IMG/VR virus record: IMGVR_UViG_3300025133_000023
Strand: one strand, 5' to 3'
DNA from: a virus
DNA length: 64,000 nt
Below are positions 1 to 48,210 of the stretch, in pieces (position 1 is the first letter of the stretch; each line of letters begins with the position of its first letter). The position numbers and the translations under genes are program-made. Under the pieces are notes generated by a model, which ran no database searches, had not been told where the DNA came from, and saw only the letters and a list, made by a program, of their open reading frames with translations.

Positions 1-3000
1 AGCGTCTGGGGTAATGACAGAAATGAAACCATTCTCTGGAGTGAAAATATGGGTAACTTCCTCGACTTCAATTGGTCCAGCGATACCGTTATAGTCATCA
101 GCTAACATAATAATATCATAAGGCTTGATTCGAGCATTACCAATAAGGGTGATAGAACCCTTATACATGTCTCGTAGCCCTTTCATAATAGACGCAACAC
201 CGTAACGAGTGGCAAGCTGTTTACCATTACAGTTGAAGAAGTCGATATTCTCAGCAAGAACATCTTCATCAGGCATAGAGCTGTGAGCCTTCATCTCAAG
301 AGTGTTCCACCAGTTAGCTCCAGAGTTCTTCTTACCCATTCTTGTTCTTGCGCGAGTGCTTTCATCAAAGTCAAATAGTTTCTCTGTGCTAGCGTCCCAA
401 CTCTTAGTATAGGTAACTGAAACAGCATTCCAAACACCATAACTTGAAACTGCAATGTTGTTTCCAACAAGATTAATGGAAGAGCTAGCAAGATGATACC
501 CACGGAAGGGCTTAAATCGAGCATTCAGTCCTTCAATATATTCAGCAATTAACAAGTGGAAAGCTTCCTTATTTTCATAGCTTCGGTTGGTTATCTCGGC
601 AAGGTCTTCATCAAGCCTCCTAAGAATACCTTTTCGAAGCGTGGTCATCCTTTCCTTATAGCTTGTGGGAACAGGACGAGCCCAGTATCTCTGACTTGGG
701 ACTCCAAAGAACATTGTCATACGCCGACCGTAGGGAACAGGAGATGCAATCCACCCAGGATGCCTTAGGGTCATCTCTTGGAAGACATCCCAAACAGTTG
801 TGTTCATTAAGAAGTACATGATATCATTGGGGTGCATCTTCCCAGTCACGTCGAAGACCCCCCAGTCAACAATATCTTCTACCGATGGAGCAAAGACATT
901 ATCGTCTACAGGGTTGTTGAGCCTATGTCGCATTTTATACTTAAACTCTGCATCAGAAGTATAGAGGGCATCAGCTGCTTCGATTGCACCAAGGGCTAGA
1001 ACTGCTCCGACTGAAATCGGAGCGGCCAGCGGCATCACCACGGCTCCAACAGCACCAGTAGCGATAGCTCCAGCGATTCTCCATAGACTCCAGTGAGGCT
1101 TAGAGTGAATCGTTGTGCGTGACTTACGTGGGCCAAAAATTTCTGGACGAGGAGGCCTGGTTCCGTGCTCTAGTTCGAAGTCAGCTTGCTGAGCCTCTCC
1201 TGGCTGGAATGTAGACCCATAGGTGAACCTGCCAAAGTGCAAAACCTCAGGCGACTTGAGCATTGTGTCAAGGAGCTCGGCAGTGTCTACATAACCGTAA
1301 GCTCTCGAGAGAGTCCTATTATTCATAACCTCATCCCCCTTCATCTTCTTACCAGAGACGCCCTTTTCTACAGCGACAAGCTCAGCTGCATAGGACTGGG
1401 CCATGATGGAAACATGATCGTTGTTGTCACCCCAGCTGACTTGAAGGACACGACCATTGAAAAGGTTCTCCATGTACTGAGGGTTGTTAGCAAACCCAAG
1501 ACGGAGGCGAATGTCCATGCCCTCTCTGAGAACTATAGACTCAAATCGCTGCTTAGAATTATCTGCTTGGCGTCTTTCATCAGCTTCATTAGCCCTACCT
1601 GTAGTTGCCCCATTCTTAGTTTCCCTACCGATGTAGTCAATGTCTCGCAGTCCGGCAGGCATTGTTCCGTCAAGAACACCACCAACATTCTGAAGCTCAA
1701 TAATAACCAGGTCTGCTGGGATCTTACGGCTGCGTGTACAGGTGATCTTTTTAACAGCGGAGTAGCCGTAGAAATCGCTAAGGGATCTCCACCCTTCGGT
1801 CCCGTTGTCATCAACGAATTCAATCTTAAAGGTTGGAAAGGCTCTCCTCATCAAGAAGATTCCTTCACTGAGCATCCCGTTAGCAGACTCAAGACATAGC
1901 TGCTGGATAGCCTCATCCCCATAGATGTGGTCTGTGTTTTTGTTCCCACTAAATACACCAGCCTCCTTAGAGGCCATGCGCCCAGTAGCCCCATCAACAA
2001 AGTCATTCTCTGCTTCCATGAAGTCTTTAAGGTCCTCGGATGGCTCATAAACCTTAATAGAAGATCGCGTGTTGCCTTCACCGCCATCTCCACTACCGTC
2101 TGGGACTGCAAGCTTATCTGCTATTTCTGTATCCTCTAGTTCTTCTTTGAGCTTCTTGCCACTTGAGAAATCCTTCAAACTCCCCCAAGCATTGCTAGCA
2201 CAAGTACGGAGCTGGGCTTCCCATGGAACCCCACTAAGGTCATCCACTCCACCATCTTCGCTTGGATTATAGAAGTAAAAGTCAGGGTAAGTCATGACAC
2301 GACTATGCATGATTGGGTGAGTGGGAAGAATAAGATCAGGATATGCATCTGGCATGTGAGCATATGCGCTCTTCCTTGCAAGGGCAATAGTCTCGGGGAA
2401 ATGCTGGTCATCTCTGTCTACAAGATCTGCAATGATTTGCTGGATCATGTTTGCCCAGCCCCTCTTGTAAATCTCATAAATAGACCTCTCCAGTTCAGGA
2501 GAAGTGTGGGTTCCGAAAAGAAGACGGTCATCCTCGGGAGTGTAACGAACTATAGTCTTAGTTCTGTTCCGAGATACTGGGAGAATCTCCGTTGTTCCTC
2601 TGGCTCGAATTGCGGCAAGCTCCGCTCTTACACTTTCTGTGTGTTCAGAGCCAGTAGCGACTCTAGCCTCATAGGCTCCAATAGGCCCTTGAATACCTCG
2701 CACAGCATATTTGTTAAAGGTAAGATTCGCATACTCTTCCCAAAGAGCATCAAGCTGATCATTGTGCCAACCCTTGGTGGATTCTTGCTGAGCAAAGGAT
2801 GATCTATTAGTAAGGGAATCCACCCAGGCGGTATGCTCCGGATAGGTTAATGAAAGGGTTGCCCCGCTTCCAGAAACATACTGTCTTCTATTCCCAAACA
2901 TTGGGAGGATCACTTCTTCAAAGCCCCACAAATCAAATTCTGCTTTAATCTCAGCTTCAGTAAACCCTCCATACCACTTATCACTGAAGACATGACAACC

Positions 3001-5523
3001 TAGAAGGAGACGCAAAATCACCTGATTGACCATGTTTTCCGCATAGCTACTTTCTCCAGTTGGGTATTTGTTAGTGTAGTCTGCGTACCATTCTCCAGAG
3101 TTGTTCAGTTCAGGCCTATTGACAGCTACACCGTCTCGATGAACCTCTGTGCCAGGTCTTCTGTTGAGGGTGCTTGCGACGGTAAAGAACTTCCTCACCT
3201 CTTTGAAGAACTGACGGAAGACCTCGTCCTTGTCATAGGTTACGCTTTCGAGCACAACGTTGTGGAACTCAGCACTTGCGTCAAATTCCATTTGAATCTG
3301 ATACAAGCCAGGAGAGCCTGGGATAGAGCTAGTACCCATGCTGCTGATAACCCAATTAGATGATCCGGCAAGATTGCTTCCAATGAAGTCAATGTTTGCG
3401 CACCATGCCATGGGAATGTTTCTAAACTTCCGAGCATTGTATTCAAGAGTAGCCCTCATGCTCCAAAGCTGACGAGCTTCTGGGGAGAGACTATCTAGCC
3501 TCCTATCTCCGTCATAGGTTCCCTTCTTAGCCTCACGTCCTAGACGGTCTACGCCTTCTTGCTCGAAGGTGCTATTAAGGTCAAGAGCCTGGAAGAAGAT
3601 CCGCGCCTCCTGTCCTCCCATGTACTGAGCGGTAGGAAGCTCATGTCCAACAAGAGGAATACTAGCAAACCTGTTAAGGAGCTCAACTCCCCACACGGTA
3701 ATGACTGTTCCATCCTTAGGCCTGTTTCCACTGGAAACAATAATACGCCTGGGACGATAGAGAGTAAGGGGAACATGAGGACTGTTATAGAGATGCCACC
3801 CTTCTTCCTGCAAGCTTATAGCTTCGAGCTTTGCTGCGTCTCGCTCCTCTTGAGTTGGCTCTTCATACTTGAATTCCTTAGATGGACTAACATCTTCTAC
3901 TTCAATAGCATCAGCCCGAGCAACTACACCTCCAGCTGCATCCACAATGCCTGGGTTTACATTCTCGATATTCATTAGGCGAGGCTCGCCACCCATGTCA
4001 GGATTTGGAGAACCATTCTCCCATAGCTCAACGTGAGCGTGAACACCGTGAACTCCACTCGTGCCACTTCCTCTGTCTGCGTTAGACGTTCCGGCATTGC
4101 CAACCTGCTGTCCAACCGTAACAAAGGCTCCGTTTCTTGGAAGGCTGGCATTCTCCATGTGTCCTATGCGAACCCAAAGACCGTCATGATCGCCGGTTCC
4201 TTGGATTACAATATACCCACCAAAAGAACCAGAGGGATTTCCTCCTCCTGTTGTATATCGGATGACACCATTGATTGGACTATGAATAGATGTGGTTGTT
4301 CTGCTGTCAGTTCCACCCCAGGCAATGTCTGTCCCCTTATGGCTTCTGCTTCCGCCAGAAGGGGTCGAGCCTCTTGGCCCAACTCCATCACCCACACTAC
4401 CGACATTGTTAGTAACGACCATAGCCGTACCAACACCTTCGTAGACCTTTTCATTTCCATTAATAGTTCCAGTGCCAAAGACACTAGAGTCGAGCCCAGG
4501 GATACGATCGGCTCCACTGTAGGTGTCGGCGCTGTGACGAATCTTTGCGAAGGACTTATGTAGGAGTTTACCTAGAGCAGTGTTCGGAGAGAGAGCCGTA
4601 TATTCTCTATAGTCGAAGATAACATTTTGACCAGGACTGAATTGCCCGTAGCTAAACGGAATTGGATTAAACTGACTGGTATGGCCGCCGGTCACCCCTC
4701 CAACACGAGTGAGGCTATTGTCAGTTCGATATCTGTTTCTTTCGAGTCGGGAAGTCTTTGCACTATTTCTAACGGCATCAATCATTCCAAAACCATCAAA
4801 GTCTCGCTCCATGGCAATGGCTTGGAGATGATTCAGATAAAGAATGTAAATGTTTGATTCATTAGCAGAGACAGGATTCGTTGGAAGGTTGGGAACAATA
4901 GGAGGAGTAACGTCTGTGAACTCCATAAACTTAGCCTTTTGGATAAGGTCTGTTGGTTCATCAGACTGAGCTGTAGGGAAACTTGATCCTGCTGGAGGGC
5001 GAATATCGCTGCCTCCCCCGTCTTCAATCTCTAAGATGGTTACTTCTTTTCCGCTCTTCCTTTTAAAGCGCCAGTTTTGTTTGTAGCTAAAGAGTGGGCT
5101 AAAGGGGGAGTAGTTGAACCATGACAACATAAGCTGAACGGACAATGCATCAGGGTTCTCTTCGATAGAAGTGATGGTCATGGCTTCAGCACATACAGCC
5201 ATAGGAACAGCATCAGTCGCATTGGCAAGCATGACGGACCGAATGTAGTTATTTTCTATTTCCCAAAATGGGGTGTACTTGAACTGCTGGATTAACCTAT
5301 GAAGCTTCCAGACCTCTCCTGGGAGGACAATCATGGTTAGGTTGATTGCAGCTATACCTCGGCCCGTTTTCGTCTTGGACGAAGTTCGAGATCTTAGATA
5401 AGACGATTCATTAATAGCCCCACGATGAGATATAGAAATATCTGTAGGTGGAACGATAAACCCAAGGTCATTAAATCTAAAGTATCCTTCTTGGACCTGT
5501 TGATATGAATTAAATGCTGTCAT
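1..5523 (-). CDS. Giant baseplate hub protein with inserted M23 peptidase; >1841 aa, 3'-truncated by the window edge, absent from the ORF track
   Basis: ATG at 5523, 3 nt downstream of the previous TAA. I found no stop in the parts of this frame I translated (about 1-1200 and 3540-5523), and the track lists no ORF in this frame. M23 motifs HKGTD (4327-4341) and HAH (4033-4041). The last residues GSITLIGNARIKPYDIIMLADDYNGIAGPIEVEEVTHIFTPENGFISVITP resemble the C-terminal part of gpD/gp27-type hubs. Confidence 0.8.
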   Translation of the reverse strand, partial: MTAFNSYQQVQEGYFRFNDLGFIVPPTDISISHRGAINESSYLRSRTSSKTKTGRGIAAINLTMIVLPGEVWKLHRLIQQFKYTPFWEIENNYIRSVMLANATDAVPMAVCAEAMTITSIEENPDALSVQLMLSWFNYSPFSPLFSYKQNWRFKRKSGKEVTILEIEDGGGSDIRPPAGSSFPTAQSDEPTDLIQKAKFMEFTDVTPPIVPNLPTNPVSANESNIYILYLNHLQAIAMERDFDGFGMIDAVRNSAKTSRLERNRYRTDNSLTRVGGVTGGHTSQFNPIPFSYGQFSPGQNVIFDYREYTALSPNTALGKLLHKSFAKIRHSADTYSGADRIPGLDSSVFGTGTINGNEKVYEGVGTAMVVTNNVGSVGDGVGPRGSTPSGGSRSHKGTDIAWGGTDSRTTTSIHSPINGVIRYTTGGGNPSGSFGGYIVIQGTGDHDGLWVRIGHMENASLPRNGAFVTVGQQVGNAGTSNADRGSGTSGVHGVHAHVELWENGSPNPDMGGEPRLMNIENVNPGIVDAAGGVVARADAIEVEDVSPSKEFKYEEPTQEERDAAKLEAISLQEEGWHLYNSPHVPLTLYRPRRIIVSSGNRPKDGTVITVWGVELLNRFASIPLVGHELPTAQYMGGQEARIFFQALDLNSTFEQEGVDRLGREAKKGTYDGDRRLDSLSPEARQLWSMRATLEYNARKFRNIPMAWCANIDFIGSNLAGSSNWVISSMGTSSIPGSPGLYQIQMEFDASAEFHNVVLESVTYDKDEVFRQFFKEVRKFFTVASTLNRRPGTEVHRDGVAVNRPELNNSGEWYADYTNKYPTGESSYAENMVNQVILRLLLGCHVFSDKWYGGFTEAEIKAEFDLWGFEEVILPMFGNRRQYVSGSGATLSLTYPEHTAWVDSLTNRSSFAQQESTKGWHNDQLDALWEEYANLTFNKYAVRGIQGPIGAYEARVATGSEHTESVRAELAAIRARGTTEILPVSRNRTKTIVRYTPEDDRLLFGTHTSPELERSIYEIYKRGWANMIQQIIADLVDRDDQHFPETIALARKSAYAHMPDAYPDLILPTHPIMHSRVMTYPDFYFYNPSEDGGVDDLSGVPWEAQLRTCASNAWGSLKDFSSGKKLKEELEDTEIADKLAVPDGSGDGGEGNTRSSIKVYEPSEDLKDFMEAENDFVDGATGRMASKEAGVFSGNKNTDHIYGDEAIQQLCLESANGMLSEGIFLMRRAFPTFKIEFVDDNGTEGWRSLSDFYGYSAVKKITCTRSRKIPADLVIIELQNVGGVLDGTMPAGLRDIDYIGRETKNGATTGRANEADERRQADNSKQRFESIVLREGMDIRLRLGFANNPQYMENLFNGRVLQVSWGDNNDHVSIMAQSYAAELVAVEKGVSGKKMKGDEVMNNRTLSRAYGYVDTAELLDTMLKSPEVLHFGRFTYGSTFQPGEAQQADFELEHGTRPPRPEIFGPRKSRTTIHSKPHWSLWRIAGAIATGAVGAVVMPLAAPISVGAVLALGAIEAADALYTSDAEFKYKMRHRLNNPVDDNVFAPSVEDIVDWGVFDVTGKMHPNDIMYFLMNTTVWDVFQEMTLRHPGWIASPVPYGRRMTMFFGVPSQRYWARPVPTSYKERMTTLRKGILRRLDEDLAEITNRSYENKEAFHLLIAEYIEGLNARFKPFRGYHLASSSINLVGNNIAVSSYGVWNAVSVTYTKSWDASTEKLFDFDESTRARTRMGKKNSGANWWNTLEMKAHSSMPDEDVLAENIDFFNCNGKQLATRYGVASIMKGLRDMYKGSITLIGNARIKPYDIIMLADDYNGIAGPIEVEEVTHIFTPENGFISVITPDA

Positions 5524-5526
5524 AGA

Positions 5527-8500
5527 TTAATAGTGATCAATTGCTGATGGGTAGAGGGGCCGACGGTTGTCGTTAATTCGTGTTCGAATATTTGCCCCAG
5601 GACGACGTCTGCGATATTCAGAGATGGCTCTATCCATTTCGCTTGACTGCATGTTCGCTCCCGTTCGTGCGCGACTTGTTGTCCCGGTAGAGGTGACCCT
5701 GGCGGTGGGAGAATGGGTCACGCCACTTCTTCCAGGCATTGCAGACTGAGGAGCTACTCCCTGTGGGGTGATATTGGCAGCAGGCATGTTAAGCATACTT
5801 CCATCTTGAATGTGCTGTAGCAGTCTAGGATCAAGCCCAGCCTCATCTCCTAGGGGAGCTCCACCATAGCCAGGACCACCCATTACACCCTGCATTAGGG
5901 CTGTTCCTGCAAGGCCTATAATCGCTGCAGTGCCTAGTGTTCTCTTGTGTTTTCCGAGTTCCTTAGTAGAGACGTTAATCTTTCCTAGCATCTCTTCGAC
6001 AAACCCAGCCATAGTGCTTTGGCGATTGACTGTGCTTACAGCCCGAGCCAACTGATCTTCACCAGCCATGCCATGCTCTATAGCATACCGAGCAGCCTTA
6101 AGTGTATCATCTAAAGACATATTGCGCTTGGCTCTGCTTAAGTTGAAGACCCTTCTCTTGATGCCACCTTCTTCATTCTGGTAGTTAGCCATGACGGTCA
6201 TGAGAGCTTTTCTGTCAGCTTCACCCCAGGCGAATCTCTGAGACTTTCCACCAATCTCAATATTGTAGCCTGACCTAATGTTTCCCTTGCCCATGAAGAT
6301 GTCTTCCATAACCCCAATGAACCTGCCAGTGTCCATTTGAGCTTTTGTGGAACCTTGTGGTCCATAGAGAGCTTTGATTAATTCATCTCCAACATTCATA
6401 GCTTCAGGAAGATGACGAGATTTTAGAGTAGCTGTTTCTTCAACAGCACTAAGGATAGAGTAGATTTTAGATCGCTGCTGCTCTGGCATATCCTCAAGGA
6501 GCATAGCGTATTTGACTTCCTCAAGGGTCCTCGAGACGCGCCCAACATCTTTACCGTAGAAGAGCTTTTTGGATTGCTGAATACGTAGATCACTGACAGC
6601 TTCTTGACTGTAGCCCTTTCTTTGCCCATAGTCGATCATACTATCAAAGACATCTTTGTTAACCTTCTTCTGCCAAACCATTGCATAGTCATATTGCCGG
6701 GCGATCTTTTCCATAGCGCCTTTTCTGCGCATCATGCGAACACCATCTGGGTCGGTCATGAGCTTAACGAAAGCCCTATCCGCGTCATAGTCCATACCCA
6801 TGCCTGGAGCAAGGCCTAGCTCGTAGTCGCTCTTCACCCCATTAACGGTAACGCTAACCAGTCTTTGAGCAATCTTGATGATCTCTTGATCCTTAGAGGA
6901 TCCTCCAGTGTAGACAGCAATTCGAGCAGGCTGAATAGATCCCTGATAAGCAGCAGGCATTCGGCCAACGATACCCGACCAAGAAGCCTCCCCTCTAAGA
7001 AAGGCTCCCTTCTCAAGCTTGCTAGGCAGGGTTCCGGCATCTTCCATTTCGCCAACAAGTCGCTTTGCCAGTTTCTGACTAATGAAGGCCGTGTTGCCAT
7101 CGGCTAAGTCCATCCCAACCCGAGTATTAATTCCTTCCCTAGCGCCAATCATGCTATCTTCAAGGATGTCACTAATAGCTGGCAAGCCAGCAACCTGAGC
7201 ATAGGAAGAGCCTGCCCCAAGCTTATTCTTAGTGAGGCTCCTCTTCGCGGACTGGTAAAGGCCAACAACCCCTGCCATTCCGCTTTGCTCATGTCCACTC
7301 ATGATCCGAGCTAGGCGGGTGTCCATGTCAAGATCCTCATATCCATCAGGAGCCAACAGCTGGAACATCTTTTTAACCTGATTACGGTAAGCCTTTTCCT
7401 GCAGCTCACCACCCTGTGCACGAGCATAGCCAGCTGTGCGGATCTCTGCCCCTAGCTCAGCGCTCACAGACTGCATACCAGGGACGTGCCAAGAGGTAGA
7501 CATACCTCTAGCCTTAAGGGCTCCATGCATTTCCTTTGGCATTTCTACTACAGCACCCCTGCCACGGAACCAATCTTCCTGAGTAATGTCTGCAAGACTC
7601 TGGGAGGCAAACTTCACTCTAGGTAAGCTTTCATCTATCTGGGTAGCGTCACCGGTCATGCTCCAAAGCATCTTGCCAATAGCATTGAAGTCATCAATAG
7701 TCGCAGCAGAGGAGGTGCTTCCATAGATGTCCCTAACAAGTGCTTCTGTTAGGTTCTCCCCACCAGACATGATCTGCTTGCTAAGGAGCATGTCAAAGTT
7801 ACGAGCCTCAACACTTCCCATACGGCCCTGAGCCAGATGGGGAAAGTCACCTATAAACTGCGATGAGCCTCCAATAGCCATTTTAAGTCTAGCAAGGCCG
7901 GCTACGTGACCGGAGTCTTTAAAGACACCAGTAAGCATTGACTCATAAGCAGCAACGGCTTCTGGACTACCTTGCTTTCCGCCATAGAAAATGCTACCGC
8001 CACCAAAGACAAGTCCAATTGACTCGCTTCGACCTAGCCCCAGAAACTTCGCTTTCTCAGCGACAGCACGTAGGATATCGGGAACTTCCTGTCCCGCAGC
8101 GTTGAGTGTCTTTCGTGTAGTATCATAAAGCTTACCTTGATCTTGAGCTAGGAACTGCTTAAGCCTAAGCATCTGTGGAGTCTCCCCCAAGGTTGCATTC
8201 AGCTTATCAAGACTGCCTCTGGCAGCAGCGAGGTCTGCCCTCCATGAGGCTGGTGAGCCATAATCGATAAGTCGCTTCTCTAGACCACGCTTTTTATCTA
8301 CAGCAGCAAGTGTTTTTTGAACATCGAAACTTTCAATTGGTGCCGAACTTAGCTTTCCTAACATAGCCCTTGCTTTCTTATAGTCCTTTCTAAGCTTATT
8401 CAATTCTGGATGCTTTAGACCGATCTTCTTCTCAAGATTAAGGATTTTACCCTTTAGCTTAAGCAGGTCCTCGGCAGCCTTAGAGTTATCAAGATACCTC

Positions 8501-10833
8501 TTCTGCTGAAGCCCTTCAAGCTCTTGTCCTGCAACAATCCTAAGTCCACTAACTGCCTGCTCGTGTACAGCGAAGAGGTCCTTCGTGAGAGGAGAGGTGT
8601 TGGTGATTTGGTCAATATGCTGAGCAAGCTTACTCATTTCCTTTACAGACATTCCCATGTGCTTTGCTAACTGAGCTAGATTCTTATCCATTATCTCTTC
8701 GGAACGAATCTTCAAAGTTGTTTTTGTTCCATGGAAAACCTTCATATGCTCAACAGCATCGATATCCTGCTTCACATGGAGACGTAAATATCCTTCATGG
8801 GAAAGCGTTGCCCCAACAAGAGTCTCTGACACATAACTTTCACCCGCAGCTCTAATGACCTGCCCAGACTTAGTTCCTGAACCAAGGCCTAAAGCCTGAC
8901 CTCGGCCTAGACTAATTCCACCTTTGGTTTCTGCAATACGTGCTCGAATAGCTTGAGCCATTTCTTCTGGGCTAAGGTTCCCAGCCGATAGCTTCTTAAG
9001 GGTTGCTTCTCCAAGAGGCAGACTAACAGGGGAGCCAGGCGCAGCAATAATATTGTAGCTCTTTGTCTTTTGAGCTCTTAAAGCTTTAGAGAAACCTTCA
9101 CGAATAAAAGACTCACCATCCATCATCCCCCATCGACGCAAGATGCCTGGGATTTTGCCTGGCTGACCATCTGCCCTAATCCCATCACCCAGGACATGCA
9201 AGGTAATAGCAGAAGGAGTCACATAACCGAACCCCTTCATGAATAGGTCCTTATACGTTGCTCCAGCATTCACTGGAACAAATCTCTTGAGAGCGCTGAC
9301 AGTCTTGACTGAACGACGACCTGTCCCCTTATCAAAGGCTCCCTCAATTTGAAAGCTTGGCCCCATGCCAACACTTTGGAGATGCTTAGAGTCCATAAGG
9401 TCAAGGACAAACTTCCCATCGTGTCCCTTCTTTCCCCACTCCTTGCGAGCTGTCTCTGTAGGAGTCCAGTTTAAATCTCTGACAAGCTGGAACAGCCTTC
9501 GACTTCGGTCAAAGCTGTGCTGGTCTTTAAACAAGTTCAATAGATTGTGAGAAGGACCACCGGGGGCTATTCTGAAGTGAGCCATATCGACAAACCCACC
9601 CCTGGTCAAAGTACCAGGACCAATAGCTTCTACGCTTGGGTTCTTCCTCATAAAAGCTTCCATCATGTCTGCAGTGTAGTGATCGTCTCCTAGAGCGGCT
9701 GGATCAAAGACGGTATTCCGAGCAAAGGCAGCGCGTAGCCTTTCCCCTGGAGTGGAGTGACTAGTTTCAAACTGACCAATCTTTCTCAGATCTGAATAGA
9801 AGCCTCTATAGGACATCGCTCTGTCTGCTCCAGACATACCTCCCATCTTCACAATCTGTGCGGCTAACTTATCATTTACAGACTGATTCGACCCAAGAAC
9901 ATGACCCACAGAGAAGATCGACATACCCTTAGGAGAAACAACTCGCTCTCCTGTTGGGGTTCTTTTCCCTTTGGGGCCTAGACTCTCATTCCCAAAGATA
10001 AACCTAAACTCTCGCTTGCTTCCTTTATACTTCACATTGAGTTCGCGGAAGGTAGAGCCATCTCTTCCTGTTAGCTTATGCATCGTCATGTGAGCATTAA
10101 CCTTAGCTAGTCCAGCACTTCTTCTCCATCCCTTAAAGCTTGCAACCTCTTCTCTTTCAAAGAAGTCAGGAACCTTCATCTCGCTACCAGCACCAAGGAA
10201 GCCCATGTTGCTATAGAAGCTACTAAGCCCATGCTTCTCCCAAAACATTCCAGTGCCAATAATCTGTCCACCCTTAGCTACACCTCCCCTGCGGGGACCG
10301 TGTTGTCCTTTAATGTCGATATACTTACTGGGATCAAGCATCTGCCACTTCTTCCAGAGAATGCTTGCATCACTACTGGACATTCCGGAAACAATTCCCT
10401 GCATTCGAGAAGCATAGGCAGTACGGTCTCCACTTGATCCTAGGGCTTGCTTGGACATTGACTGTGCTTCAAAGAGCGCCTGAAGCATGTTCTGTTTGTT
10501 AAGGCTTACTGCTGGGTCTGCAATAGCTGCTGCATAGGCAAAGGCTAGTCTCTTGGCTGAGTTGGGACCGAAGCTTCCACCCAGAGATTGCTTGAGCATT
10601 TTACGAGCATCCAGCACATTACCTGCAGCGTTCCTAGCAGCCAGACGCATACCCTTAATAGACCTAGCCGCCCTACCTGCTGCATCTGCTGCGGTAGTTC
10701 CCTGAGAAGCCTGGTTGGATTGAATGTCCCTATACACAGATAGTCCACCCAGACCCACAGCGCCCAACAATGGAGTGTAGGTGAAGACGGTGGCAAATGG
10801 GTTTCGACCCTTTCTGTTTTTATTGTCAGACAT
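5527..10833 (-). CDS. Putative virion single-chain two-barrel (DPBB) RNA polymerase, 1768 aa
   Basis: Beta-like motifs GMMDGESFI, MKVFHGTK (8722-8745) and HIDQITN are followed by beta-prime-like motifs GRMP (about 6955-6966) and GMDYDADR (DYDAD 6778-6792), in the canonical order. The gene lies inside the tail module. Confidence 0.7.
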   Translation of the reverse strand: MSDNKNRKGRNPFATVFTYTPLLGAVGLGGLSVYRDIQSNQASQGTTAADAAGRAARSIKGMRLAARNAAGNVLDARKMLKQSLGGSFGPNSAKRLAFAYAAAIADPAVSLNKQNMLQALFEAQSMSKQALGSSGDRTAYASRMQGIVSGMSSSDASILWKKWQMLDPSKYIDIKGQHGPRRGGVAKGGQIIGTGMFWEKHGLSSFYSNMGFLGAGSEMKVPDFFEREEVASFKGWRRSAGLAKVNAHMTMHKLTGRDGSTFRELNVKYKGSKREFRFIFGNESLGPKGKRTPTGERVVSPKGMSIFSVGHVLGSNQSVNDKLAAQIVKMGGMSGADRAMSYRGFYSDLRKIGQFETSHSTPGERLRAAFARNTVFDPAALGDDHYTADMMEAFMRKNPSVEAIGPGTLTRGGFVDMAHFRIAPGGPSHNLLNLFKDQHSFDRSRRLFQLVRDLNWTPTETARKEWGKKGHDGKFVLDLMDSKHLQSVGMGPSFQIEGAFDKGTGRRSVKTVSALKRFVPVNAGATYKDLFMKGFGYVTPSAITLHVLGDGIRADGQPGKIPGILRRWGMMDGESFIREGFSKALRAQKTKSYNIIAAPGSPVSLPLGEATLKKLSAGNLSPEEMAQAIRARIAETKGGISLGRGQALGLGSGTKSGQVIRAAGESYVSETLVGATLSHEGYLRLHVKQDIDAVEHMKVFHGTKTTLKIRSEEIMDKNLAQLAKHMGMSVKEMSKLAQHIDQITNTSPLTKDLFAVHEQAVSGLRIVAGQELEGLQQKRYLDNSKAAEDLLKLKGKILNLEKKIGLKHPELNKLRKDYKKARAMLGKLSSAPIESFDVQKTLAAVDKKRGLEKRLIDYGSPASWRADLAAARGSLDKLNATLGETPQMLRLKQFLAQDQGKLYDTTRKTLNAAGQEVPDILRAVAEKAKFLGLGRSESIGLVFGGGSIFYGGKQGSPEAVAAYESMLTGVFKDSGHVAGLARLKMAIGGSSQFIGDFPHLAQGRMGSVEARNFDMLLSKQIMSGGENLTEALVRDIYGSTSSAATIDDFNAIGKMLWSMTGDATQIDESLPRVKFASQSLADITQEDWFRGRGAVVEMPKEMHGALKARGMSTSWHVPGMQSVSAELGAEIRTAGYARAQGGELQEKAYRNQVKKMFQLLAPDGYEDLDMDTRLARIMSGHEQSGMAGVVGLYQSAKRSLTKNKLGAGSSYAQVAGLPAISDILEDSMIGAREGINTRVGMDLADGNTAFISQKLAKRLVGEMEDAGTLPSKLEKGAFLRGEASWSGIVGRMPAAYQGSIQPARIAVYTGGSSKDQEIIKIAQRLVSVTVNGVKSDYELGLAPGMGMDYDADRAFVKLMTDPDGVRMMRRKGAMEKIARQYDYAMVWQKKVNKDVFDSMIDYGQRKGYSQEAVSDLRIQQSKKLFYGKDVGRVSRTLEEVKYAMLLEDMPEQQRSKIYSILSAVEETATLKSRHLPEAMNVGDELIKALYGPQGSTKAQMDTGRFIGVMEDIFMGKGNIRSGYNIEIGGKSQRFAWGEADRKALMTVMANYQNEEGGIKRRVFNLSRAKRNMSLDDTLKAARYAIEHGMAGEDQLARAVSTVNRQSTMAGFVEEMLGKINVSTKELGKHKRTLGTAAIIGLAGTALMQGVMGGPGYGGAPLGDEAGLDPRLLQHIQDGSMLNMPAANITPQGVAPQSAMPGRSGVTHSPTARVTSTGTTSRARTGANMQSSEMDRAISEYRRRRPGANIRTRINDNRRPLYPSAIDHY

Positions 10834-10835: not shown

Positions 10836-13800
10836 TTATAGGCCATATCTCTTACGGAACTGATCTTCCTCGCCCATGCGAGAGTCGTTTACTTCAAGAT
10901 CAAGTGTGTGGCTTGGGTTAGCTGAAGAGTAGCTAATGGTCCTCATGTTAGTAGAGCTGAAACCATTGGCCCCAAAAGCTAAGTGACCCAAGTCTCGGTC
11001 ATTGGTGGGCTCAAAGTAATTTCCCTGAGCAATCACCTCATCTGTTAGATAAGGTTTTCTAGAGAGAAGACGCGACTGGCTTTCCCACATTCCATAATCA
11101 TGGATGTCTTTCCCTTGTTGCTGAACAACCCTTAGTTTAACATCTTCAAGGTCAACAGCAGGGTTAAAGCCAACCCAATCTACAGCAGGCATCGTGTCAC
11201 CAAGCTCAGCCTCAGTACGCTGCAGCTTTTCGAAGTCGCCAAACGACATCCAGCTAGGGGCTTCCTTTTCATATCTCGAATATCTGGCTGTGCTGAAATC
11301 TTCTCCAGCAGTAGAGCCCCAGTCTTGAACAAGCCGACCTAGCTTTTCATCTCCTGTTCTAAGATAGTCAGCCTTAAGCCATTGTGCCTCATAAATGCGA
11401 TGGAGAGACTCGGGTACTAAATCAAGGATTTCCTTTCGTCTTCGCTCGCTAGTGGTGCTAGCAAACGCCTCGAAGAAGTCTTGTTCCTCACGAGGCAAAG
11501 CAGCTTTCACAGCTGCAAGTCTATCAAATGGGTTGACTCCAGTTACCGTCTTACTGGCAAGCTTCTCGTAAAGAGAAGCGTTCCGTGTATCTCCAGCTTC
11601 ATGGGCCTGCTCTTCAAGCATCTTCCATTTATAGTATTCAAGCTTATCGTAGTGGTCATTGAATCCACGAATCGTCTTAATGTGTCCAGGGATGGCATCT
11701 ACACCGAACCAGTCATGGAGGGTCTGGTTAATGAATGGTCTGAACCAATCACGCCACATTTCCTTAAGTCCCCAGAAAGCGAACCGAGTACCATACACAA
11801 CAGTGTCTTCATACTCTGAGATTGGGTCAAGATACTTGAACAACTTTTCGACAGGGCGGAAGCCAAGAGGGATAATCTTAGAGGGACCAGAGAAGACATC
11901 ATGGATAACTTCATTGAAGCCCTTCCATGCCATGCCTGCTGCTCTGCCAACTAGCCCACGTCGCTTGGTGTTCTCGTTAAGAGCTGGAAGATAGCTTTGC
12001 CATTCTCTCTTAGCTCTCTTCTGCTGCATGCGAGACTCTGCTGCTTGAACAAACTTAAGAGCCTCTTCTCCAAACTGTCCCTGAGCTGTACGGAACTTGA
12101 CTGCTCTCTGAACTTCTCTGAATTCCTGAGACCATGCAGCAACATCACCAAGAACGGCATACTTGTAAACTAGCGGCCAACTTTCCGGATCCTTTCCTTC
12201 TAGTTCGGGGTGCAAGGCAGCGTAACCCTTGCCAGGTAGTCGATACTCTCCACCCGCTACATTGCTATAGGGATCACCGAAGCGTAGTTCTTCGGGCATC
12301 CAGCTAGGCATGTTGTTAGGGATGGGGTTGTACTGCTGTATGGAACTAAGAGGACGGGGGAAGAATCGACGGATTGGCTCAGACAAGAATCCAAAACCAC
12401 CTAGGTTCTGTTCCCAGTAACGCCTAGTCCATGAGTCAATAGCATTCGCTGACTGGAGCTGTGAGCCTTGAGTTCCTGGTACGTCTACTCCAGCAAGATG
12501 CTTACCAACCTCTCCCAAAGTGAAACCCCACAGACCGGGGCCTTCAACAAGGTTCTGATAAAAGAACTGACCCAGTCGACGTTTCCCGCTATAGGGACTG
12601 TCTGGAGTTCCTGGCTGCAGGCCACCCAGAGAATAGGCTGGCTGAATCTCCAGGGAGTTAGAGATGTGCTTCAGCTCTAGGCTACCTGTTTCTCTGTTAA
12701 CTCGAGCCCACTCTCCTACATGCATTAAGCGAGCTGGCTTAATCAGCTTGCCAATAGGATCGAGGAAGAGCTTAGCGAAAGGAACCTCTTCAAAGGCCTG
12801 CCCAGTAATTGGGTATGGCCTATCTTTATAGTTTCTTTCTTCTAGCTCATAGGTAAAGTGCTTACGATAGAACTTGCCAATAGGAGAGTGCCACGCACCA
12901 CCAACAGGGTTCCAGAAATCAAAGTCTTCGTCTTCACCCCATACGGACTTCTCAATAGCTCTCGACTTAGACAACGCCAACCAGTGAGGCTTGAAGTGAC
13001 TAATAGCGCCACCTTCCCAAGCAGTACCACCGCCTTCCCACCATCTACCCTTACGGACTGGCTGAAGCTTTCGTCCTTCATAGATCGCACTTAACTCTTC
13101 AGTAGTCTCAGACGTAGCAAGCTTTCCGGCAAGCACCGACCAAGCAGCAGCAGCTGTGACGAATCGCATACCCCAAGATGAGCCAAAGGGAAGACTCCAC
13201 TGTTTGATGTTCTTTATTCCACCAGCACGCCAGAACTTGTCACCTAGCTCAGAGCGAGCAATGACTCTCTTAGGGTTAGCCCCAGCCCATGCAGCTTGAA
13301 CCTGAAGCCCCATTCTCTTCCAGGGGTTCTCTTCTCCTACAATCCTAGTAGCCCAACTGATGTCGTGGTTGATTTGCTTGGTCATCCACTTCGGGATCTC
13401 TCCACCCTGGATGCCTTCTGTTACCGAGTGTCTCCAGGCAGAGCGTTTGGAGATTTCGTTAATAGCATAGACCGAGTCACGCATACGCTGCTGACCCTTA
13501 CTAAGGACAGCTCCGCCGGACTTCTTAGACTCATTAACTAATCCACGTTCATTATAGATGTTCCAGAACTGAGTAGCATACGTTCCAGTGCTAGCATGAA
13601 TTCGCTGAAGGATTGTTCCACCCTTCATACTTGGACGCATTTCCTTACGAAGCATACGGTCTAGGACATGACCAACTCCCACACCAATAATACCCATACC
13701 AATAGCTGTTGAGCTATCAGTGGAGCCTGGCATGTTGGTTTCAAACCATCTTCTCCAGCCACTACCAATGAACGGGACGGGGCTGAGGGCATTCGTAACT

Positions 13801-15077
13801 GTTGATCGAAGCTTGTTTGCAATAGCTCCAACGTTTCCGAATCCAGCGAACAAGCCATCCCTGAAGGGAGGAAGCAGACTACCTACTGCACCAATAGCAG
13901 CTCCGCGACCAATGTGAGACCACTTCTTTCCAAAGATGCTTCCAAAGTAAGCGCCAGTAATACCAAAGGCAGCTGCTCCACCGACAGTATCATGCTGCTT
14001 TGCCCAGCTTGCAGAACTTAGGAGAAGCCCAGCCATGCCGACAGTCCCCGCCTTGCGGGCATACATGAATGAGTTCTTTAGGAAGCTTCCTTCTTTTCCA
14101 TAAAGCTTAAAGGGTAGCTGTCCACCAATGTCTGACAGGATAGGGATCTGCTGCCAAATAGTACGGATAAGCTCGTTGAGCCGACCACTACCAGCAGCCC
14201 CTACTAGGCGTCCCATATGGATAGCGGTGTCTGCTGGGCCTGCCCCTGTTACTGTGGGGATGTGTATTGGCAAGAACTCTAAGTTTCTACCAACAGCCTT
14301 AATGGCATCGTCCTCCATAGCAGAACCAACATGGTAACCAATACCAGCACGAACCTTGGAAATCTTCATCTCCTGTCCTGCAGTAGCTACTAGGCTGGGG
14401 GCTGTCTTGTGACTGTAGGCTTTGGAAGAAGCTTCACCGCTTCCATACTTCTGGCGTTCCCAATCTGCCTGAACCCTAGCCAACAGGTCTGGATTCTTAA
14501 TAGCAAGATCAGCCTGGATCATTCGCTGAAGCTCTCTAGCTCTACCGCGCTGACCCAACACTAGACGGTCTTGAACGAGCTCTCCTGACTTTGCGTTATA
14601 GGCTTTGTAGAAGACACTGTCTGCGGATTCTCTCTCAAGCCTTAGCCCGTGCTGTCCTGCATCAATAAGCTTATGGGGCTCTACCCCCATTACCGAAGCC
14701 ATCACCTCGCGGATGAACTTGTTCCCTCCATCAATGTTAAAAGCTTCAGGGGGCAAGAATGGCTTGAAGAGCTTCCCAGTAGCCTCCATAATCCGCTCAT
14801 GATCAACAAACGGAGACACCATAAATGGTAGTCTGAAGGTAGCCATCATGCCACCAGGCAGGACGAATCTCTCAGCTACTTGAAGGGTTCTGTAGGCTTT
14901 CGTAAAGCCTCGCTCTCCGCCATGGCGGAGCATCCCTACCCCAAAAACACCAGCGCCCACAGCAGCGCCAGTAGCCCAACCAAAGAGCTGCCTTCCTGTG
15001 GAAGGCTGTGTTAGCTCATCTTGGCGTTGGCTACTCCACGTTGTGTGCGGGCCGGAGTTTGAGTACAGATTGGACAT
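10836..15077 (-). CDS. Tape-measure or ejected internal virion protein, 1413 aa
   Basis: Long Gly/Ala-rich protein with several hydrophobic segments, directly after the putative tail chaperones (the usual tape-measure position). Confidence 0.55.
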   Translation of the reverse strand: MSNLYSNSGPHTTWSSQRQDELTQPSTGRQLFGWATGAAVGAGVFGVGMLRHGGERGFTKAYRTLQVAERFVLPGGMMATFRLPFMVSPFVDHERIMEATGKLFKPFLPPEAFNIDGGNKFIREVMASVMGVEPHKLIDAGQHGLRLERESADSVFYKAYNAKSGELVQDRLVLGQRGRARELQRMIQADLAIKNPDLLARVQADWERQKYGSGEASSKAYSHKTAPSLVATAGQEMKISKVRAGIGYHVGSAMEDDAIKAVGRNLEFLPIHIPTVTGAGPADTAIHMGRLVGAAGSGRLNELIRTIWQQIPILSDIGGQLPFKLYGKEGSFLKNSFMYARKAGTVGMAGLLLSSASWAKQHDTVGGAAAFGITGAYFGSIFGKKWSHIGRGAAIGAVGSLLPPFRDGLFAGFGNVGAIANKLRSTVTNALSPVPFIGSGWRRWFETNMPGSTDSSTAIGMGIIGVGVGHVLDRMLRKEMRPSMKGGTILQRIHASTGTYATQFWNIYNERGLVNESKKSGGAVLSKGQQRMRDSVYAINEISKRSAWRHSVTEGIQGGEIPKWMTKQINHDISWATRIVGEENPWKRMGLQVQAAWAGANPKRVIARSELGDKFWRAGGIKNIKQWSLPFGSSWGMRFVTAAAAWSVLAGKLATSETTEELSAIYEGRKLQPVRKGRWWEGGGTAWEGGAISHFKPHWLALSKSRAIEKSVWGEDEDFDFWNPVGGAWHSPIGKFYRKHFTYELEERNYKDRPYPITGQAFEEVPFAKLFLDPIGKLIKPARLMHVGEWARVNRETGSLELKHISNSLEIQPAYSLGGLQPGTPDSPYSGKRRLGQFFYQNLVEGPGLWGFTLGEVGKHLAGVDVPGTQGSQLQSANAIDSWTRRYWEQNLGGFGFLSEPIRRFFPRPLSSIQQYNPIPNNMPSWMPEELRFGDPYSNVAGGEYRLPGKGYAALHPELEGKDPESWPLVYKYAVLGDVAAWSQEFREVQRAVKFRTAQGQFGEEALKFVQAAESRMQQKRAKREWQSYLPALNENTKRRGLVGRAAGMAWKGFNEVIHDVFSGPSKIIPLGFRPVEKLFKYLDPISEYEDTVVYGTRFAFWGLKEMWRDWFRPFINQTLHDWFGVDAIPGHIKTIRGFNDHYDKLEYYKWKMLEEQAHEAGDTRNASLYEKLASKTVTGVNPFDRLAAVKAALPREEQDFFEAFASTTSERRRKEILDLVPESLHRIYEAQWLKADYLRTGDEKLGRLVQDWGSTAGEDFSTARYSRYEKEAPSWMSFGDFEKLQRTEAELGDTMPAVDWVGFNPAVDLEDVKLRVVQQQGKDIHDYGMWESQSRLLSRKPYLTDEVIAQGNYFEPTNDRDLGHLAFGANGFSSTNMRTISYSSANPSHTLDLEVNDSRMGEEDQFRKRYGL

Positions 15078-16254: not shown

Positions 16255-16944
16255 TTAGGTTACTTCCCTGCAAATAAATGGGTATTGTTCTAGGACAGGC
16301 TCACCTTCTACAGTGATCGTTTGTCCAAAACCCGTAAGTTGAACTTGGCGCAATGTGCGCACTGCGGAAAGAGTAAAGCTAGGTTGGTTATCCTGGCTTC
16401 TCAGTTGATTACCAAACGCATCACCATAGGTGACGATAATATCGAAAGGTAGGTAGTGATCGTCTGGGCGAGCAAGGCTAGTGCTACTTAACACATCCTG
16501 CCTAGATAGCTCGGAGCCTGCGTCTCCACCCCAGAACCTTCTTTTAAGAGTGTCTCTATCTTGACCTGCATGATCGGGGTCGCTTGGGTTTACCAAAGCC
16601 TGGGCACTCTGTCCCAGCTTCTTTTCAAACTTGTTTGTGTAGAAGTCTGATTCTACATCAAGACCATGGGTTCGTGCGATTAAAGTTGGAAGAAACTGCG
16701 CATACTGAAAGTTAACCATGAGAAATCCAGAACACTGGACCGTTCCCCAGGCAACCCCATCCCACAGTTGGGACGCATATCCCCACACTGGTCGCTTATT
16801 TTGGACTAGAGAAAACTCTATGCCCACCGCCGTTCCGATTAGGATCTCGCGAATATAGAGGCCGATATTGGAACCAGTAAAGTAATCATAGGTAAAATGA
16901 GAGGTATCATTATTATCATATCCGCTACGGTAGGTCTTTGTCAT
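16255..16944 (-). CDS. Tail tube-like paralogue 3
   Basis: Shares YFTGSNI, RPVWGY, PFDIIVTYG and FICRE with the two upstream paralogues. Confidence 0.6.
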   Translation of the reverse strand: MTKTYRSGYDNNDTSHFTYDYFTGSNIGLYIREILIGTAVGIEFSLVQNKRPVWGYASQLWDGVAWGTVQCSGFLMVNFQYAQFLPTLIARTHGLDVESDFYTNKFEKKLGQSAQALVNPSDPDHAGQDRDTLKRRFWGGDAGSELSRQDVLSSTSLARPDDHYLPFDIIVTYGDAFGNQLRSQDNQPSFTLSAVRTLRQVQLTGFGQTITVEGEPVLEQYPFICREVT

Positions 16945-16946
16945 TG

Positions 16947-17819: not shown

Positions 17820-17840
17820 AGGAGAGAGTTCCTTTTGCTA

Positions 17841-18533
17841 TTAGTTTGCGTTAGTAGCGCCCTGACCCTCTTCATTTGCTTCTAACTCAATCCAAGGTAC
17901 GAGTTCACGTGCGATGAAGGTGTACTGGAACTCAGAGACTAGGTCGTCAATGGAGATTCCATAACCTTCGTTTACAAGCTCAACTCCAATCACAGCCATG
18001 CTAACTACCGCACCATATTCGTTAGAAGCGGTGAGGGTAATGTCGAATGGAGGGATCTGGTCTGGGTACCAAGGGGTAGTCAGAATCTGATCGTTGAAGC
18101 TGTTACCGTCTGGCAAAATGTCGTTACTACCGATAGAGGTTGGATTTCCTACCTGACTAATGTCGGTGATTGGCCTGTCCCCGGTAAACATAATGGAAGG
18201 ACGAATTTCTTCTTCATCTGCCCAGAACTTATTTGCATTTTCATCTTTAGAGAAAATAGGCTGAGTCGCAGAGCTAGGGTTAACTGGCCCTACTAGAGGA
18301 TGCTTATTAAACATCGCAAAGACTAGTGTCCCAGCAATGCCTCTCTTCCCTCTAGAGAATGCTCGTGGGTTTGCATAACCCATTGTGTAGATAGGAGCCT
18401 TCTCACGCTGAACAGCATAAGAGAAGGCCTGTAGCGGTACAGCTACTGTGCTATTAAAAACAGCCTTAATATCGATTCCAGTGAACGAGTTATACGCGTT
18501 CGCTCGACTTTGCTGTCCTGCTGGAAGTGCCAT
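17841..18533 (-). CDS. Tail tube protein (paralogue 1, probably the major tube)
   Basis: Immediately after sheath; SFTGIDIKA, RGKRGIAGTLVF, PDQIPPFDI, SIDDLVSEFQYTFIARE. Confidence 0.7.
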   Translation of the reverse strand: MALPAGQQSRANAYNSFTGIDIKAVFNSTVAVPLQAFSYAVQREKAPIYTMGYANPRAFSRGKRGIAGTLVFAMFNKHPLVGPVNPSSATQPIFSKDENANKFWADEEEIRPSIMFTGDRPITDISQVGNPTSIGSNDILPDGNSFNDQILTTPWYPDQIPPFDITLTASNEYGAVVSMAVIGVELVNEGYGISIDDLVSEFQYTFIARELVPWIELEANEEGQGATNAN

Positions 18534-48177: not shown

Positions 48178-48210
48178 GCCCTACACCTAGTCGTCGCTCC
48201 CTTCAGGCCA

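What the first reader, a model, noticed from the sequence alone, without database searches (positions are those of the whole stretch)
5527..10833. Single-chain two-barrel RNA polymerase in the tail module (DYDAD catalytic motif)
Seen: the 1768-aa ORF carries, in order, AITLHVL..GMMDGESFIREGFS, LRLHVKQDIDAVEHMKVFHGTKTTL and HIDQITNTSPLTK, then AKRSLTKNKLGAGSSYAQV, GIVGRMPAAYQGSIQPARI and GMGMDYDADRAFV. Established: cellular RNAP beta has GxNxEDsiiis, GDKxxxRHGxKG and DxxxNPxxxxSR; beta-prime has NRxPxLH and NADFDGD. crAss-like phage virion RNAPs and the Thermus phage P23-45 tape-measure-fused RNAP are single-chain two-barrel enzymes carried in the virion. Inference: this is a virion-packaged RNAP with a DxDAD variant of the Mg-binding loop. 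It sits as a separate gene between tape measure and hub of a contractile-tailed phage, and a pipeline would probably mislabel it as a tape measure or hypothetical protein.
Basis: partly seen in the sequence, partly recalled or inferred. Interest (0 to 1): 0.9.

Follow-up and report, generated by a model that had tools for sequence, protein, structure and literature searches.

The report
Phage tail-module RNA polymerase candidate
A 1768-residue gene among the tail genes of a large contractile-tailed phage encodes an unclassified protein whose predicted core folds like the catalytic (beta-prime) subunit of cellular RNA polymerases and keeps that subunit's active-site residues, so it is most likely an RNA polymerase that the virus particle carries into its host.

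Summary
The ORF is real (window 5527-10833, minus strand, 1768 aa) and all six quoted motifs are present in the stated order. It has no Pfam, PHROG, NCBIfam, PDB-sequence or GenBank-phage match. Only about ten relatives turned up among billions of proteins, all on phage-like contigs of 140-180 kb with the same three giant genes in a row.

R1291-x-P1293 and D1348-x-D1350-x-D1352 are invariant in all 10-11 members, down to about 23% identity. These are five of the eight residues universal to two-barrel RNA polymerases.

An AlphaFold model of residues 960-1560 (pLDDT 69.5, pTM 0.58) matched only RNA-polymerase entries:
- Foldseek: all 49 rows listed (ranks 1-50) are RNA-polymerase entries (by chain letter and length mostly the largest subunit) or QDE-1; best E 7.8e-4, probabilities up to 0.98.

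Profile comparisons of the barrel beat every column shuffle against crAss gp66, RpoC and P23-45 gp96.

The second (beta-like) barrel was not verified. There are candidate residues (E574, K698, K704/K708) and a weak beta fork-loop-like segment. Virion packaging is inferred from context only.

The parts
5527..10833 (-). Whole ORF, 1768 aa (protein B, P0001). No cysteine, net charge about +65.
10735..10797 (-). N-terminal hydrophobic, membrane-span-like segment (residues 13-33).
   Evidence: Kyte-Doolittle scan
9592..9690 (-). Residues 382-414. Segment resembling the beta-subunit fork-loop region (..FM..NP..A.GPG.LTR.GF against E. coli beta 502-545). Tentative.
   Evidence: hhalign score 19.1 against shuffle null 10.7+-2.3, 0 of 80 shuffles; 17.8, 1 of 100; conservation shown
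8689..9156 (-). Residues 560-715. Beta-strand-rich domain with G573/E574, invariant K698 and K704/K708. Candidate second (beta-like) barrel, unverified.
   Evidence: secondary structure and pLDDT 70-83 in model 1; conservation; no profile signal
7954..8586 (-). Residues 750-960. Long helical, coiled-coil-like insertion; variable in length among relatives (about 100-285 aa).
6154..7656 (-). Residues 1060-1560. Beta-prime/Rpb1-like module (N-terminal clamp-core-like part, catalytic barrel, following long helices).
   Evidence: AF2 model 2; Foldseek; VIA-align
6754..7227 (-). Residues 1203-1360. Catalytic double-psi beta-barrel (DPBB-A).
6955..6963 (-). R1291-M-P1293, the counterpart of Rpb1 R446/P448. 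Invariant in the family.
   Evidence: PMC2919709
6778..6792 (-). D1348-Y-D1350-A-D1352, putative Mg-binding triad. The three Asp are invariant; the fourth position varies (A/K/G).
   Evidence: aligned to NADFDGD, DFDGD and DFDID by hhalign
6619..6717 (-). Residues 1373-1405. A 33-residue helix directly after the barrel, bridge-helix-like. The conserved SRxLEEVKYA and EETATLK motifs follow it.
   Evidence: VIA alignments extend through this region
5875..5940 (-). C-terminal hydrophobic segment (residues 1632-1653), followed by a conserved basic tail ending in RRPLYP.
10836..15077 (-). Upstream partner gene A, 1413 aa. No cysteine, hydrophobic segment 31-50, 37% identical to its counterpart in L001. 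Always precedes B.
1..5523 (-). Downstream partner gene C (more than 1841 aa, runs off the window). M23 peptidase domain and PHROG 'endolysin' region. Always follows B.

Best explanation
The gene encodes the founding member, in this window, of a very rare family of giant phage proteins. Their C-terminal half (about residues 1060-1560) is a beta-prime/Rpb1-type catalytic module of the two-barrel RNA polymerase superfamily. It comprises a clamp-core-like region and a double-psi barrel in which R1291-x-P1293 positions the basic residue and D1348/D1350/D1352 bind the catalytic Mg2+. A bridge-helix-like helix follows the barrel. The fold and the conservation are shown. The following steps are inferred. 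(1) The N-terminal 1000 residues supply the beta-like half: a fork-loop-like segment at 382-414 and a strand-rich domain at 560-715 with invariant K698. The protein would then work as a single-chain RNA polymerase. (2) It is made late with the tail. It is carried in the virion together with its two constant neighbours, the 1413-aa protein A and the M23-peptidase protein C. Its N- and C-terminal hydrophobic segments help it cross or anchor in the envelope. (3) It is delivered with the DNA and transcribes the first genes, probably the divergent + strand arm that starts at about 46.4 kb, independently of host RNA polymerase.
Confidence: 0.62

Rival explanations
1. It is only the beta-prime-like subunit of a multi-subunit phage RNA polymerase. 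The beta-like barrel is supplied by another protein, most simply the 1413-aa protein A encoded immediately upstream, in an rpoB-then-rpoC-like order.
For: The best fold matches are the largest subunits of multi-subunit enzymes, including their N-terminal clamp part, rather than single-chain enzymes. No beta-type barrel was detected within the chain by profile tests. Protein A is 37% identical between distant phages, rich in W/P/Y, and not tape-measure-like. A and B are adjacent with a 2-nt gap and always co-occur.
Against: Protein A gives no signal against RpoB, RpoC, crAss or gp96 profiles and has no family or PDB hit. Protein B itself has about 1000 conserved residues upstream of the beta-prime-like module. 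These include a beta fork-loop-like segment and a strand-rich domain with an invariant Lys. QDE-1 aligns with its connector upstream of the barrel, as expected if a first barrel precedes it in the same chain.
Confidence: 0.2
2. The two-barrel-type module is active but does not transcribe early genes. It could act as an RNA-dependent or primer-synthesising polymerase (QDE-1- or YonO-like), or as a translocase that helps pull the genome into the cell.
For: QDE-1 and plant RDR2 are among the structural matches. The language-model neighbours of residues 1240-1500 are PF05183 RdRP clusters, but at a score of 0.76 this is a lead only. One relative has a fused 3'-5' exonuclease, which is unusual for a transcriptase.
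Against: Matches to DNA-dependent RNAP largest subunits rank higher and cover more of the model, including the clamp-like part. There is no Pfam RdRP hit and no YonO profile match. All characterised virion-borne two-barrel enzymes are early-gene transcriptases.
Confidence: 0.1
3. It is a structural tail or ejection protein (a tape-measure-like or pore-forming component). Its barrel is an inactive relic or serves another role, such as cell-wall binding like RlpA/expansin-type barrels.
For: The gene lies in the tail module between tube/chaperone and baseplate genes. The protein has a long coiled coil and terminal hydrophobic segments. BFVD and language-model neighbours of other parts are tape-measure-like, though not significant. 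Generic DPBB proteins also match the barrel.
Against: The R, P and three Asp residues are invariant across about 20-25% identity, which argues for retained catalysis. RNAP largest subunits outrank all generic barrels and align far beyond the barrel. There is no 3D-domain, RlpA or tape-measure family hit. A structural role is compatible with, and does not exclude, polymerase activity, as in P23-45 gp96.
Confidence: 0.06

Closest known systems
crAss-like phage phi14:2 gp66 virion RNA polymerase (PDB 6VR4; bioRxiv 10.1101/2020.03.07.982082)
   Same: Both are giant virion-associated single chains. Both have a DxDxD motif with a non-Gly fourth residue (DFDID/DFDVD against DYDAD/DFDKD). The RxPxxxQxSxxPxxI strand pair and the FxS strand align by hhalign over 89-90 columns. 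Outside the barrel neither has recognisable sequence similarity to other RNAPs.
   Different: There is no PHROG or BLAST relationship. gp66 belongs to podovirus-like Crassvirales and is packaged with the head contents, whereas this gene sits in a contractile-tail module. The barrels here would be about 650 residues apart, with a coiled-coil insertion, against a 140-residue connector in gp66. The crAss DPBB-B profile finds nothing here.
Thermus phage P23-45 gp96, tape-measure-fused virion RNAP (PDB 8H2M; PMC10770324)
   Different: gp96 is one 5002-aa fusion in a siphovirus. Here the polymerase-like protein, the M23 peptidase protein and the 1413-aa protein are three separate genes in a myovirus. 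gp96 lacks a clamp, while this model matches the clamp-core part of beta-prime/Rpb1. tblastn finds no similarity.
Largest subunits of multi-subunit RNAPs (bacterial beta-prime, archaeal A', Rpb1; phiKZ and AR9 split beta-prime)
   Same: These are the best fold matches. The RxP...DxDxD barrel is in the same register as E. coli R425-P427 and D460/462/464. The N-terminal clamp-like region and the helices after the barrel are also aligned.
   Different: There is no detectable sequence-family membership (Pfam RNA_pol_Rpb1 domains absent). The fourth motif residue is not Gly. The module is embedded in a 1768-aa protein with hydrophobic termini and a coiled coil. phiKZ-type virion RNAPs are made of four or five separate subunits (PMC7598289 abstract).
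QDE-1 / YonO-type single-chain two-barrel polymerases (PF05183)
   Different: There is no Pfam PF05183 hit. A 63-sequence YonO profile does not align at the catalytic loop.
Coliphage N4 virion RNA polymerase
   Same: It is a functional analogue: a giant protein ejected with two other ejection proteins to start transcription (abstracts of PMC13434306 and PMC11445570). It also has a three-protein arrangement.
   Different: The N4 enzyme has the unrelated T7-like (palm) fold, and the phage is a podovirus (PMC7824862).

Membership tests
Two-barrel (double-psi beta-barrel) RNA polymerase superfamily | DxDxD Mg-binding triad on the beta-prime-type barrel (Rpb1 D479/481/483) | tested here: met
   D1348, D1350 and D1352 are invariant in 10-11 relatives. 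hhalign aligns them to the triads of RpoC, gp96 and gp66.
Two-barrel (double-psi beta-barrel) RNA polymerase superfamily | Invariant Arg and Pro (Rpb1 R446, P448) upstream on the same barrel | tested here: met
   R1291 and P1293 are invariant, 55 residues before the triad, on a predicted strand-turn-strand. The feature is defined in PMC2919709.
Two-barrel (double-psi beta-barrel) RNA polymerase superfamily | That region adopts a double-psi beta-barrel within a beta-prime/Rpb1-like architecture | tested here: met
Two-barrel (double-psi beta-barrel) RNA polymerase superfamily | Second barrel supplying one Asp and two basic residues (Rpb2 D837, K979, K987) | tested here: inconclusive
   Candidates are E574 (7/8), K698 (8/8) and K704 or K708 (8/8 combined) in a strand-rich domain. 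Profile tests against the crAss DPBB-B region and RpoB barrel segments stay within the shuffle nulls.
Two-barrel (double-psi beta-barrel) RNA polymerase superfamily | Mg-dependent, template-directed RNA synthesis | not testable with these tools
   Needs biochemistry.
Virion (injected) RNA polymerases | The protein is present in the virion and enters the host with the DNA | not testable with these tools
   Only context is available: the tail-module position, conserved A-B-C synteny, absence of cysteine, and hydrophobic termini.
crAss-like vRNAP (gp66) family | Family-level sequence homology across the polymerase core | tested here: not met
   No PHROG hit and no tblastn hit in phages. Only the DPBB-A barrel aligns (hhalign P 0.003, 89 columns). 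The DPBB-B and connector regions do not.
P23-45-type tape-measure-fused vRNAP | Polymerase fused in one chain to a tape measure with membrane and metallopeptidase domains | tested here: not met
   The gene is separate. The M23 peptidase lies in the next gene. No tape-measure family hit was found in B.
QDE-1/YonO RdRP family (PF05183) | Match to the PF05183 or YonO profile | tested here: not met
   No Pfam hit even at E<=10 on the cropped domain. The YonO profile gives no alignment at the catalytic loop. Structural similarity to QDE-1 remains.
Phage tail tape measure proteins | Match to a tape-measure family model | tested here: inconclusive
   No Pfam, PHROG or NCBIfam tape-measure hit for B or for the upstream protein A. 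Non-significant tape-measure-like neighbours appear in BFVD and the Atlas.

The most novel reading that the evidence does not exclude
This is a previously unrecognised lineage of two-barrel RNA polymerase: a single beta-beta-prime-type chain. Its beta-prime half is closer in fold to cellular Rpb1/beta-prime, clamp core included, than to the QDE-1, crAss or P23-45 class. It travels down a contractile tail as part of a three-protein ejection set (A, B, C) and starts transcription of a separately wired early arm. In one branch it has acquired a DnaQ-type 3'-5' exonuclease, which would be the first two-barrel RNAP with a fused proofreading-type nuclease.
Probability: 0.3. Interest if true: 0.85.

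Novelty: new variant of a known kind. Interest (0 to 1): 0.75.

Why it matters
Virion-borne two-barrel RNA polymerases have been shown experimentally in three settings: crAss-like podoviruses, phiKZ-like jumbo phages (multi-subunit), and the siphovirus P23-45 (fused to the tape measure).

A stand-alone giant polymerase gene inside the tail module of a contractile-tailed phage of about 140-190 kb would add a fourth solution. It would suggest that tail-associated delivery of a transcriptase is more general than the single Thermus example.

The family is invisible to Pfam, PHROGs, NCBIfam and BLAST. It would therefore be annotated as hypothetical or as a tape measure, and host-independent early transcription in such phages would be missed.

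The module's resemblance to the clamp-bearing largest subunits of cellular enzymes bears on how phage and cellular two-barrel polymerases are related. So does the exonuclease fusion in one relative.

Tried and rejected
**Sequence libraries**
- Pfam, PHROGs and NCBIfam on the whole protein gave nothing. Pfam on the cropped barrel at E<=10 gave nothing.
- PDB sequence searches with the protein and with two profiles returned only chance rows.
- tblastn against 50,697 GenBank phage records found no match.

**Searches for more relatives**
- The full HMMER scan of 1.84 billion representatives found 8 proteins.
- Two word-indexed searches, an IMG/VR scan and a metagenome scan added only L016.

**First AF2 model (residues 500-1500; pLDDT 60, pTM 0.34)**
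- Foldseek put beta-prime chains on top, but at E>=0.07.
- Both VIA runs were swamped by the coiled coil and told nothing about the barrels.
- BFVD returned non-significant tape-measure-like and 'polyvalent' proteins.

**Profile comparisons**
- Whole-length hhalign against gp96, gp64, gp66 and RpoC always picked the DxDxD loop, but with P only 0.013-0.23. A 67-sequence crAss profile did not improve this until both sides were cropped to the barrel.
- The YonO profile gave no catalytic-loop alignment.
- Second barrel: residues 555-760 and 960-1240 were tested against the crAss DPBB-B region and RpoB segments, all within the shuffle nulls.
- Protein A as a beta-like subunit: no signal and no PDB hit.

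**Other checks**
- Atlas language-model neighbours all scored below 0.9 and are leads only.
- P0010 and P0011, which looked like short stand-alone barrel proteins, lie on a low-coverage or a very short contig and are probably fragments.
- A lytic-transglycosylase or 3D-type barrel was considered and rejected, because RNAP largest subunits outrank generic barrels and align well beyond the barrel.

- Complex prediction, the atlas fold library, the look-up of sequencing runs and the window's whole genome could not be used.
Full report
**Observation.** The window holds an uninterrupted 1768-codon ORF at 5527-10833 on the minus strand. DYDAD lies at residues 1348-1352 and GRMP at 1290-1293. This is the only ORF of at least 100 aa in the window that combines DxDxD with an RxP within 90 residues upstream.

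**Context.** All genes from about 45.9 kb down to position 1 are on the minus strand and form a tailed-phage late region:
- large terminase, 35204-37741
- portal, 29632-31794
- major capsid protein, 25156-26445
- tail sheath, 18599-20443 (PHROG E 1e-66)
- three tube-like paralogues, 16255-18533
- two small ORFs
- a 1413-aa protein, here called A (10836-15077)
- the target, here called B
- a protein of more than 1841 aa, here called C (1-5523), with an M23 peptidase domain and a PHROG 'endolysin' region

The A-B-C order, followed by baseplate-like genes, recurs in every relative for which context could be read: a 142-kb ENA contig, IMG/VR contigs of 151 and 178 kb, L015 and L098. A contractile-tailed phage is therefore confirmed. 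A has no family or PDB match. It is 37% identical between distant phages, against about 25% for B, and its long W/P/Y-rich blocks do not look like a tape measure.

**How rare it is.** B has no Pfam, PHROG or NCBIfam family. It has no PDB sequence match and no tblastn match in 50,697 GenBank phage records. A full HMMER scan of 1.84 billion cluster representatives found eight proteins. Word-indexed searches and scans of IMG/VR and JGI metagenomes added one more. The family therefore has about ten known members.

**Conservation.** Identities to the window protein run from 79% down to 20-25%. Across these members R1291, P1293, S1299, P1302, V1307, G1344, D1348, D1350, D1352 and K1357 are invariant or nearly so. 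The fourth motif position varies: A here, K in most relatives, G in one. Ruprich-Robert and Thuriaux (PMC2919709) define eight residues shared by all two-barrel polymerases:
- on the beta-prime-type barrel: Rpb1 R446, P448, D479, D481, D483
- on the beta-type barrel: Rpb2 D837, K979, K987

The five beta-prime-side residues are thus present and invariant here.

**Fold.** The first AlphaFold2 model covered residues 500-1500 and was weak (pLDDT 60, pTM 0.34). Foldseek put beta-prime chains on top, but only at E>=0.07. Both VIA-align runs were dominated by a long coiled coil at about 750-960.

The second model covered residues 960-1560 with an 11-sequence alignment and was better (pLDDT 69.5, pTM 0.58).
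- *Foldseek against the PDB.* All 49 rows listed (ranks 1-50) are RNA-polymerase entries (by chain letter and length mostly the largest subunit) or QDE-1. They include bacterial beta-prime, Pol I A190, plastid PEP, cyanobacterial, AR9 and phiKZ enzymes. The best E is 7.8e-4 and probabilities reach 0.98.

**Sequence-profile support for the barrel.** Whole-length hhalign of the family against RpoC, P23-45 gp96 and gp64, and phi14:2 gp66 always chose the catalytic loop as the best local alignment, with P between 0.013 and 0.23. With both sides cropped to the barrel, I calibrated the scores against column-shuffled versions of the family alignment:

| Target | Real score | Shuffle null | Shuffles reaching the real score | hhalign P |
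|---|---|---|---|---|
| 67-sequence crAss profile | 22.6 | 11.8+-2.4 | 0 of 150 | 0.003 |
| RpoC | 27.3 | 11.4+-2.1 | 0 of 100 | 6e-4 |
| gp96 | 24.2 | 12.1+-2.4 | 0 of 100 | 0.002 |

The crAss alignment spans 89 columns. Besides the GxDxDxD loop, it matches an FxS strand and the RxPxxxQxSxxPxxI strand pair.

**The second barrel.**
- Model 1 predicts a strand-rich domain at about residues 586-700 with pLDDT 70-83. It carries G573/E574, the invariant K698, and a second basic position that is always filled at K704 or K708.
- It lies upstream of the region that QDE-1's connector aligns to, which is where a first barrel should be.
- Profile tests of residues 555-760 and 960-1240 against the crAss DPBB-B region and the RpoB barrel segments stay within the shuffle nulls.
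- The proposed GxNxEDS match scores within the null.
- The proposed NPxxxxSR match is not conserved in the family.
- One new hint did appear. Residues 382-411 align to the highly conserved beta fork-loop segment (..FMDQNNP...ALGPGGLTR), scoring 19.1 against 10.7+-2.3 with 0 of 80 shuffles (single-sequence version). It is well conserved only in the five closer members.

I therefore rate 'single chain with both barrels' at a little over one half. The main alternative is that a partner, most simply protein A, supplies the second barrel, although A shows no similarity to RpoB.

**Other evidence for a nucleic-acid function.** The relative on the 151- and 178-kb contigs (P0009) carries a DnaQ-type 3'-5' exonuclease domain (PF01612, E 4e-27) inserted in its N-terminal region. 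B is strongly basic, with a net charge of about +65. The language-model neighbours of residues 1240-1500 among named clusters are PF05183 RdRP clusters, but at a score of 0.76 this is only a lead.

**How it probably works.** The beta-prime-like catalytic module with conserved active-site residues is shown. The rest is inferred.
- B is expressed with the tail genes.
- B and A both lack cysteine entirely and have N-terminal hydrophobic segments. B also has a C-terminal hydrophobic segment and a conserved basic tail.
- C brings an M23 peptidase.

This is the same functional set that P23-45 unites in its 5002-aa gp96: polymerase, membrane segments and metallopeptidase. It also parallels the three ejection proteins of N4 (abstracts).

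The likeliest mechanism is delivery of B with the DNA through the tail, followed by host-independent transcription of the first genes. A candidate target is the divergent + strand arm beginning at about 46.4 kb. That arm has a different composition (58% against 47% GC). It has no recognisable protein families and fewer sigma70-like sites than shuffles (2 against 7.1+-2.4).

No virion, expression or promoter data could be obtained. The whole genome was not held, so a second, non-virion polymerase cannot be excluded or found.

**Comparison and novelty.** The module belongs, by fold and by five of eight signature residues, to the two-barrel polymerase superfamily. It is not a member of the crAss gp66 family, the P23-45 gp96 family or the YonO/QDE-1 family by any sequence test. 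Literature searches found no description of such a gene in a myovirus tail module. I class it as a new variant of a known kind: virion-type two-barrel RNA polymerases.

The scan's earlier notes on this stretch are first-reader notes only. I verified the cysteine-free observation and the existence of the four hairpins. Those hairpins contain an AGGAG ribosome-binding site 5-9 nt before each ATG, so they may be translational elements rather than promoters.

Noticed in passing
window 10836-15077 (-): The upstream 1413-aa protein A has no cysteine. It is 37% identical to its counterpart in a phage whose protein B is only about 25% identical. Its long W/P/Y-rich conserved blocks (for example around residues 638-1000) look like a globular enzyme rather than a tape measure. 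It has no family or PDB match.
   Followed up: partly
L001 6361-11823 (= L017 3997-9459), protein P0009 residues 234-389: This distant relative of the target carries a 3'-5' exonuclease domain (PF01612, E 4e-27) inserted in its N-terminal region. The window's protein lacks it.
   Followed up: partly
window about 45960-64000: There is an abrupt change at about 46 kb. GC rises from about 47% to 58-60% with positive AT skew. Genes switch to the + strand, use GC-rich third codon positions and have no Pfam families. Sigma70-like promoter matches are below the shuffle expectation (2 against 7.1+-2.4). This may be a differently regulated early arm, or less likely an assembly join.
   Followed up: partly
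window 46369-46387, 48325-48343, 55908-55922, 61333-61351 (+): Four hairpins have a TTGAA(A/G)G loop and different but paired stems, each 5-9 nt before an ATG. The 3' arm plus loop contains AGGAG, so the hairpin sequesters the ribosome-binding site. Three further matches to the loop motif with stems lie on the minus strand inside coding sequence (2165-2185, 8509-8523, 10149-10165).
   Followed up: partly
window 45960-46370: An AT-rich 400-nt intergenic region lies between the two divergent arms. It has repeated GAGAAAAG / AATGAAA words and a GC-rich hairpin (GGACTGTAGGGGTCC followed by a T run at 46267-46290).
   Followed up: no
window 40315-44043 (-) and 45225-45956 (-): A 1242-aa protein has a staphylococcal-nuclease domain (PF00565, E 1e-11, residues 633-750). 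A 243-aa protein has an M15 peptidase domain. Both lie at the start of the late arm.
   Followed up: no
window 16255-18533 (-): Three consecutive paralogous genes (229, 290 and 230 aa) all hit phrog_9206, which is annotated 'major head protein'. They sit directly after the sheath gene, where a tail tube is expected.
   Followed up: no
window 1-5523 (-): The downstream giant protein C (more than 1841 aa here, 1938-2088 aa in relatives) combines an M23 peptidase domain (residues 394-506) with a C-terminal region matching the 'endolysin' family phrog_20474. It runs off the window's start.
   Followed up: no
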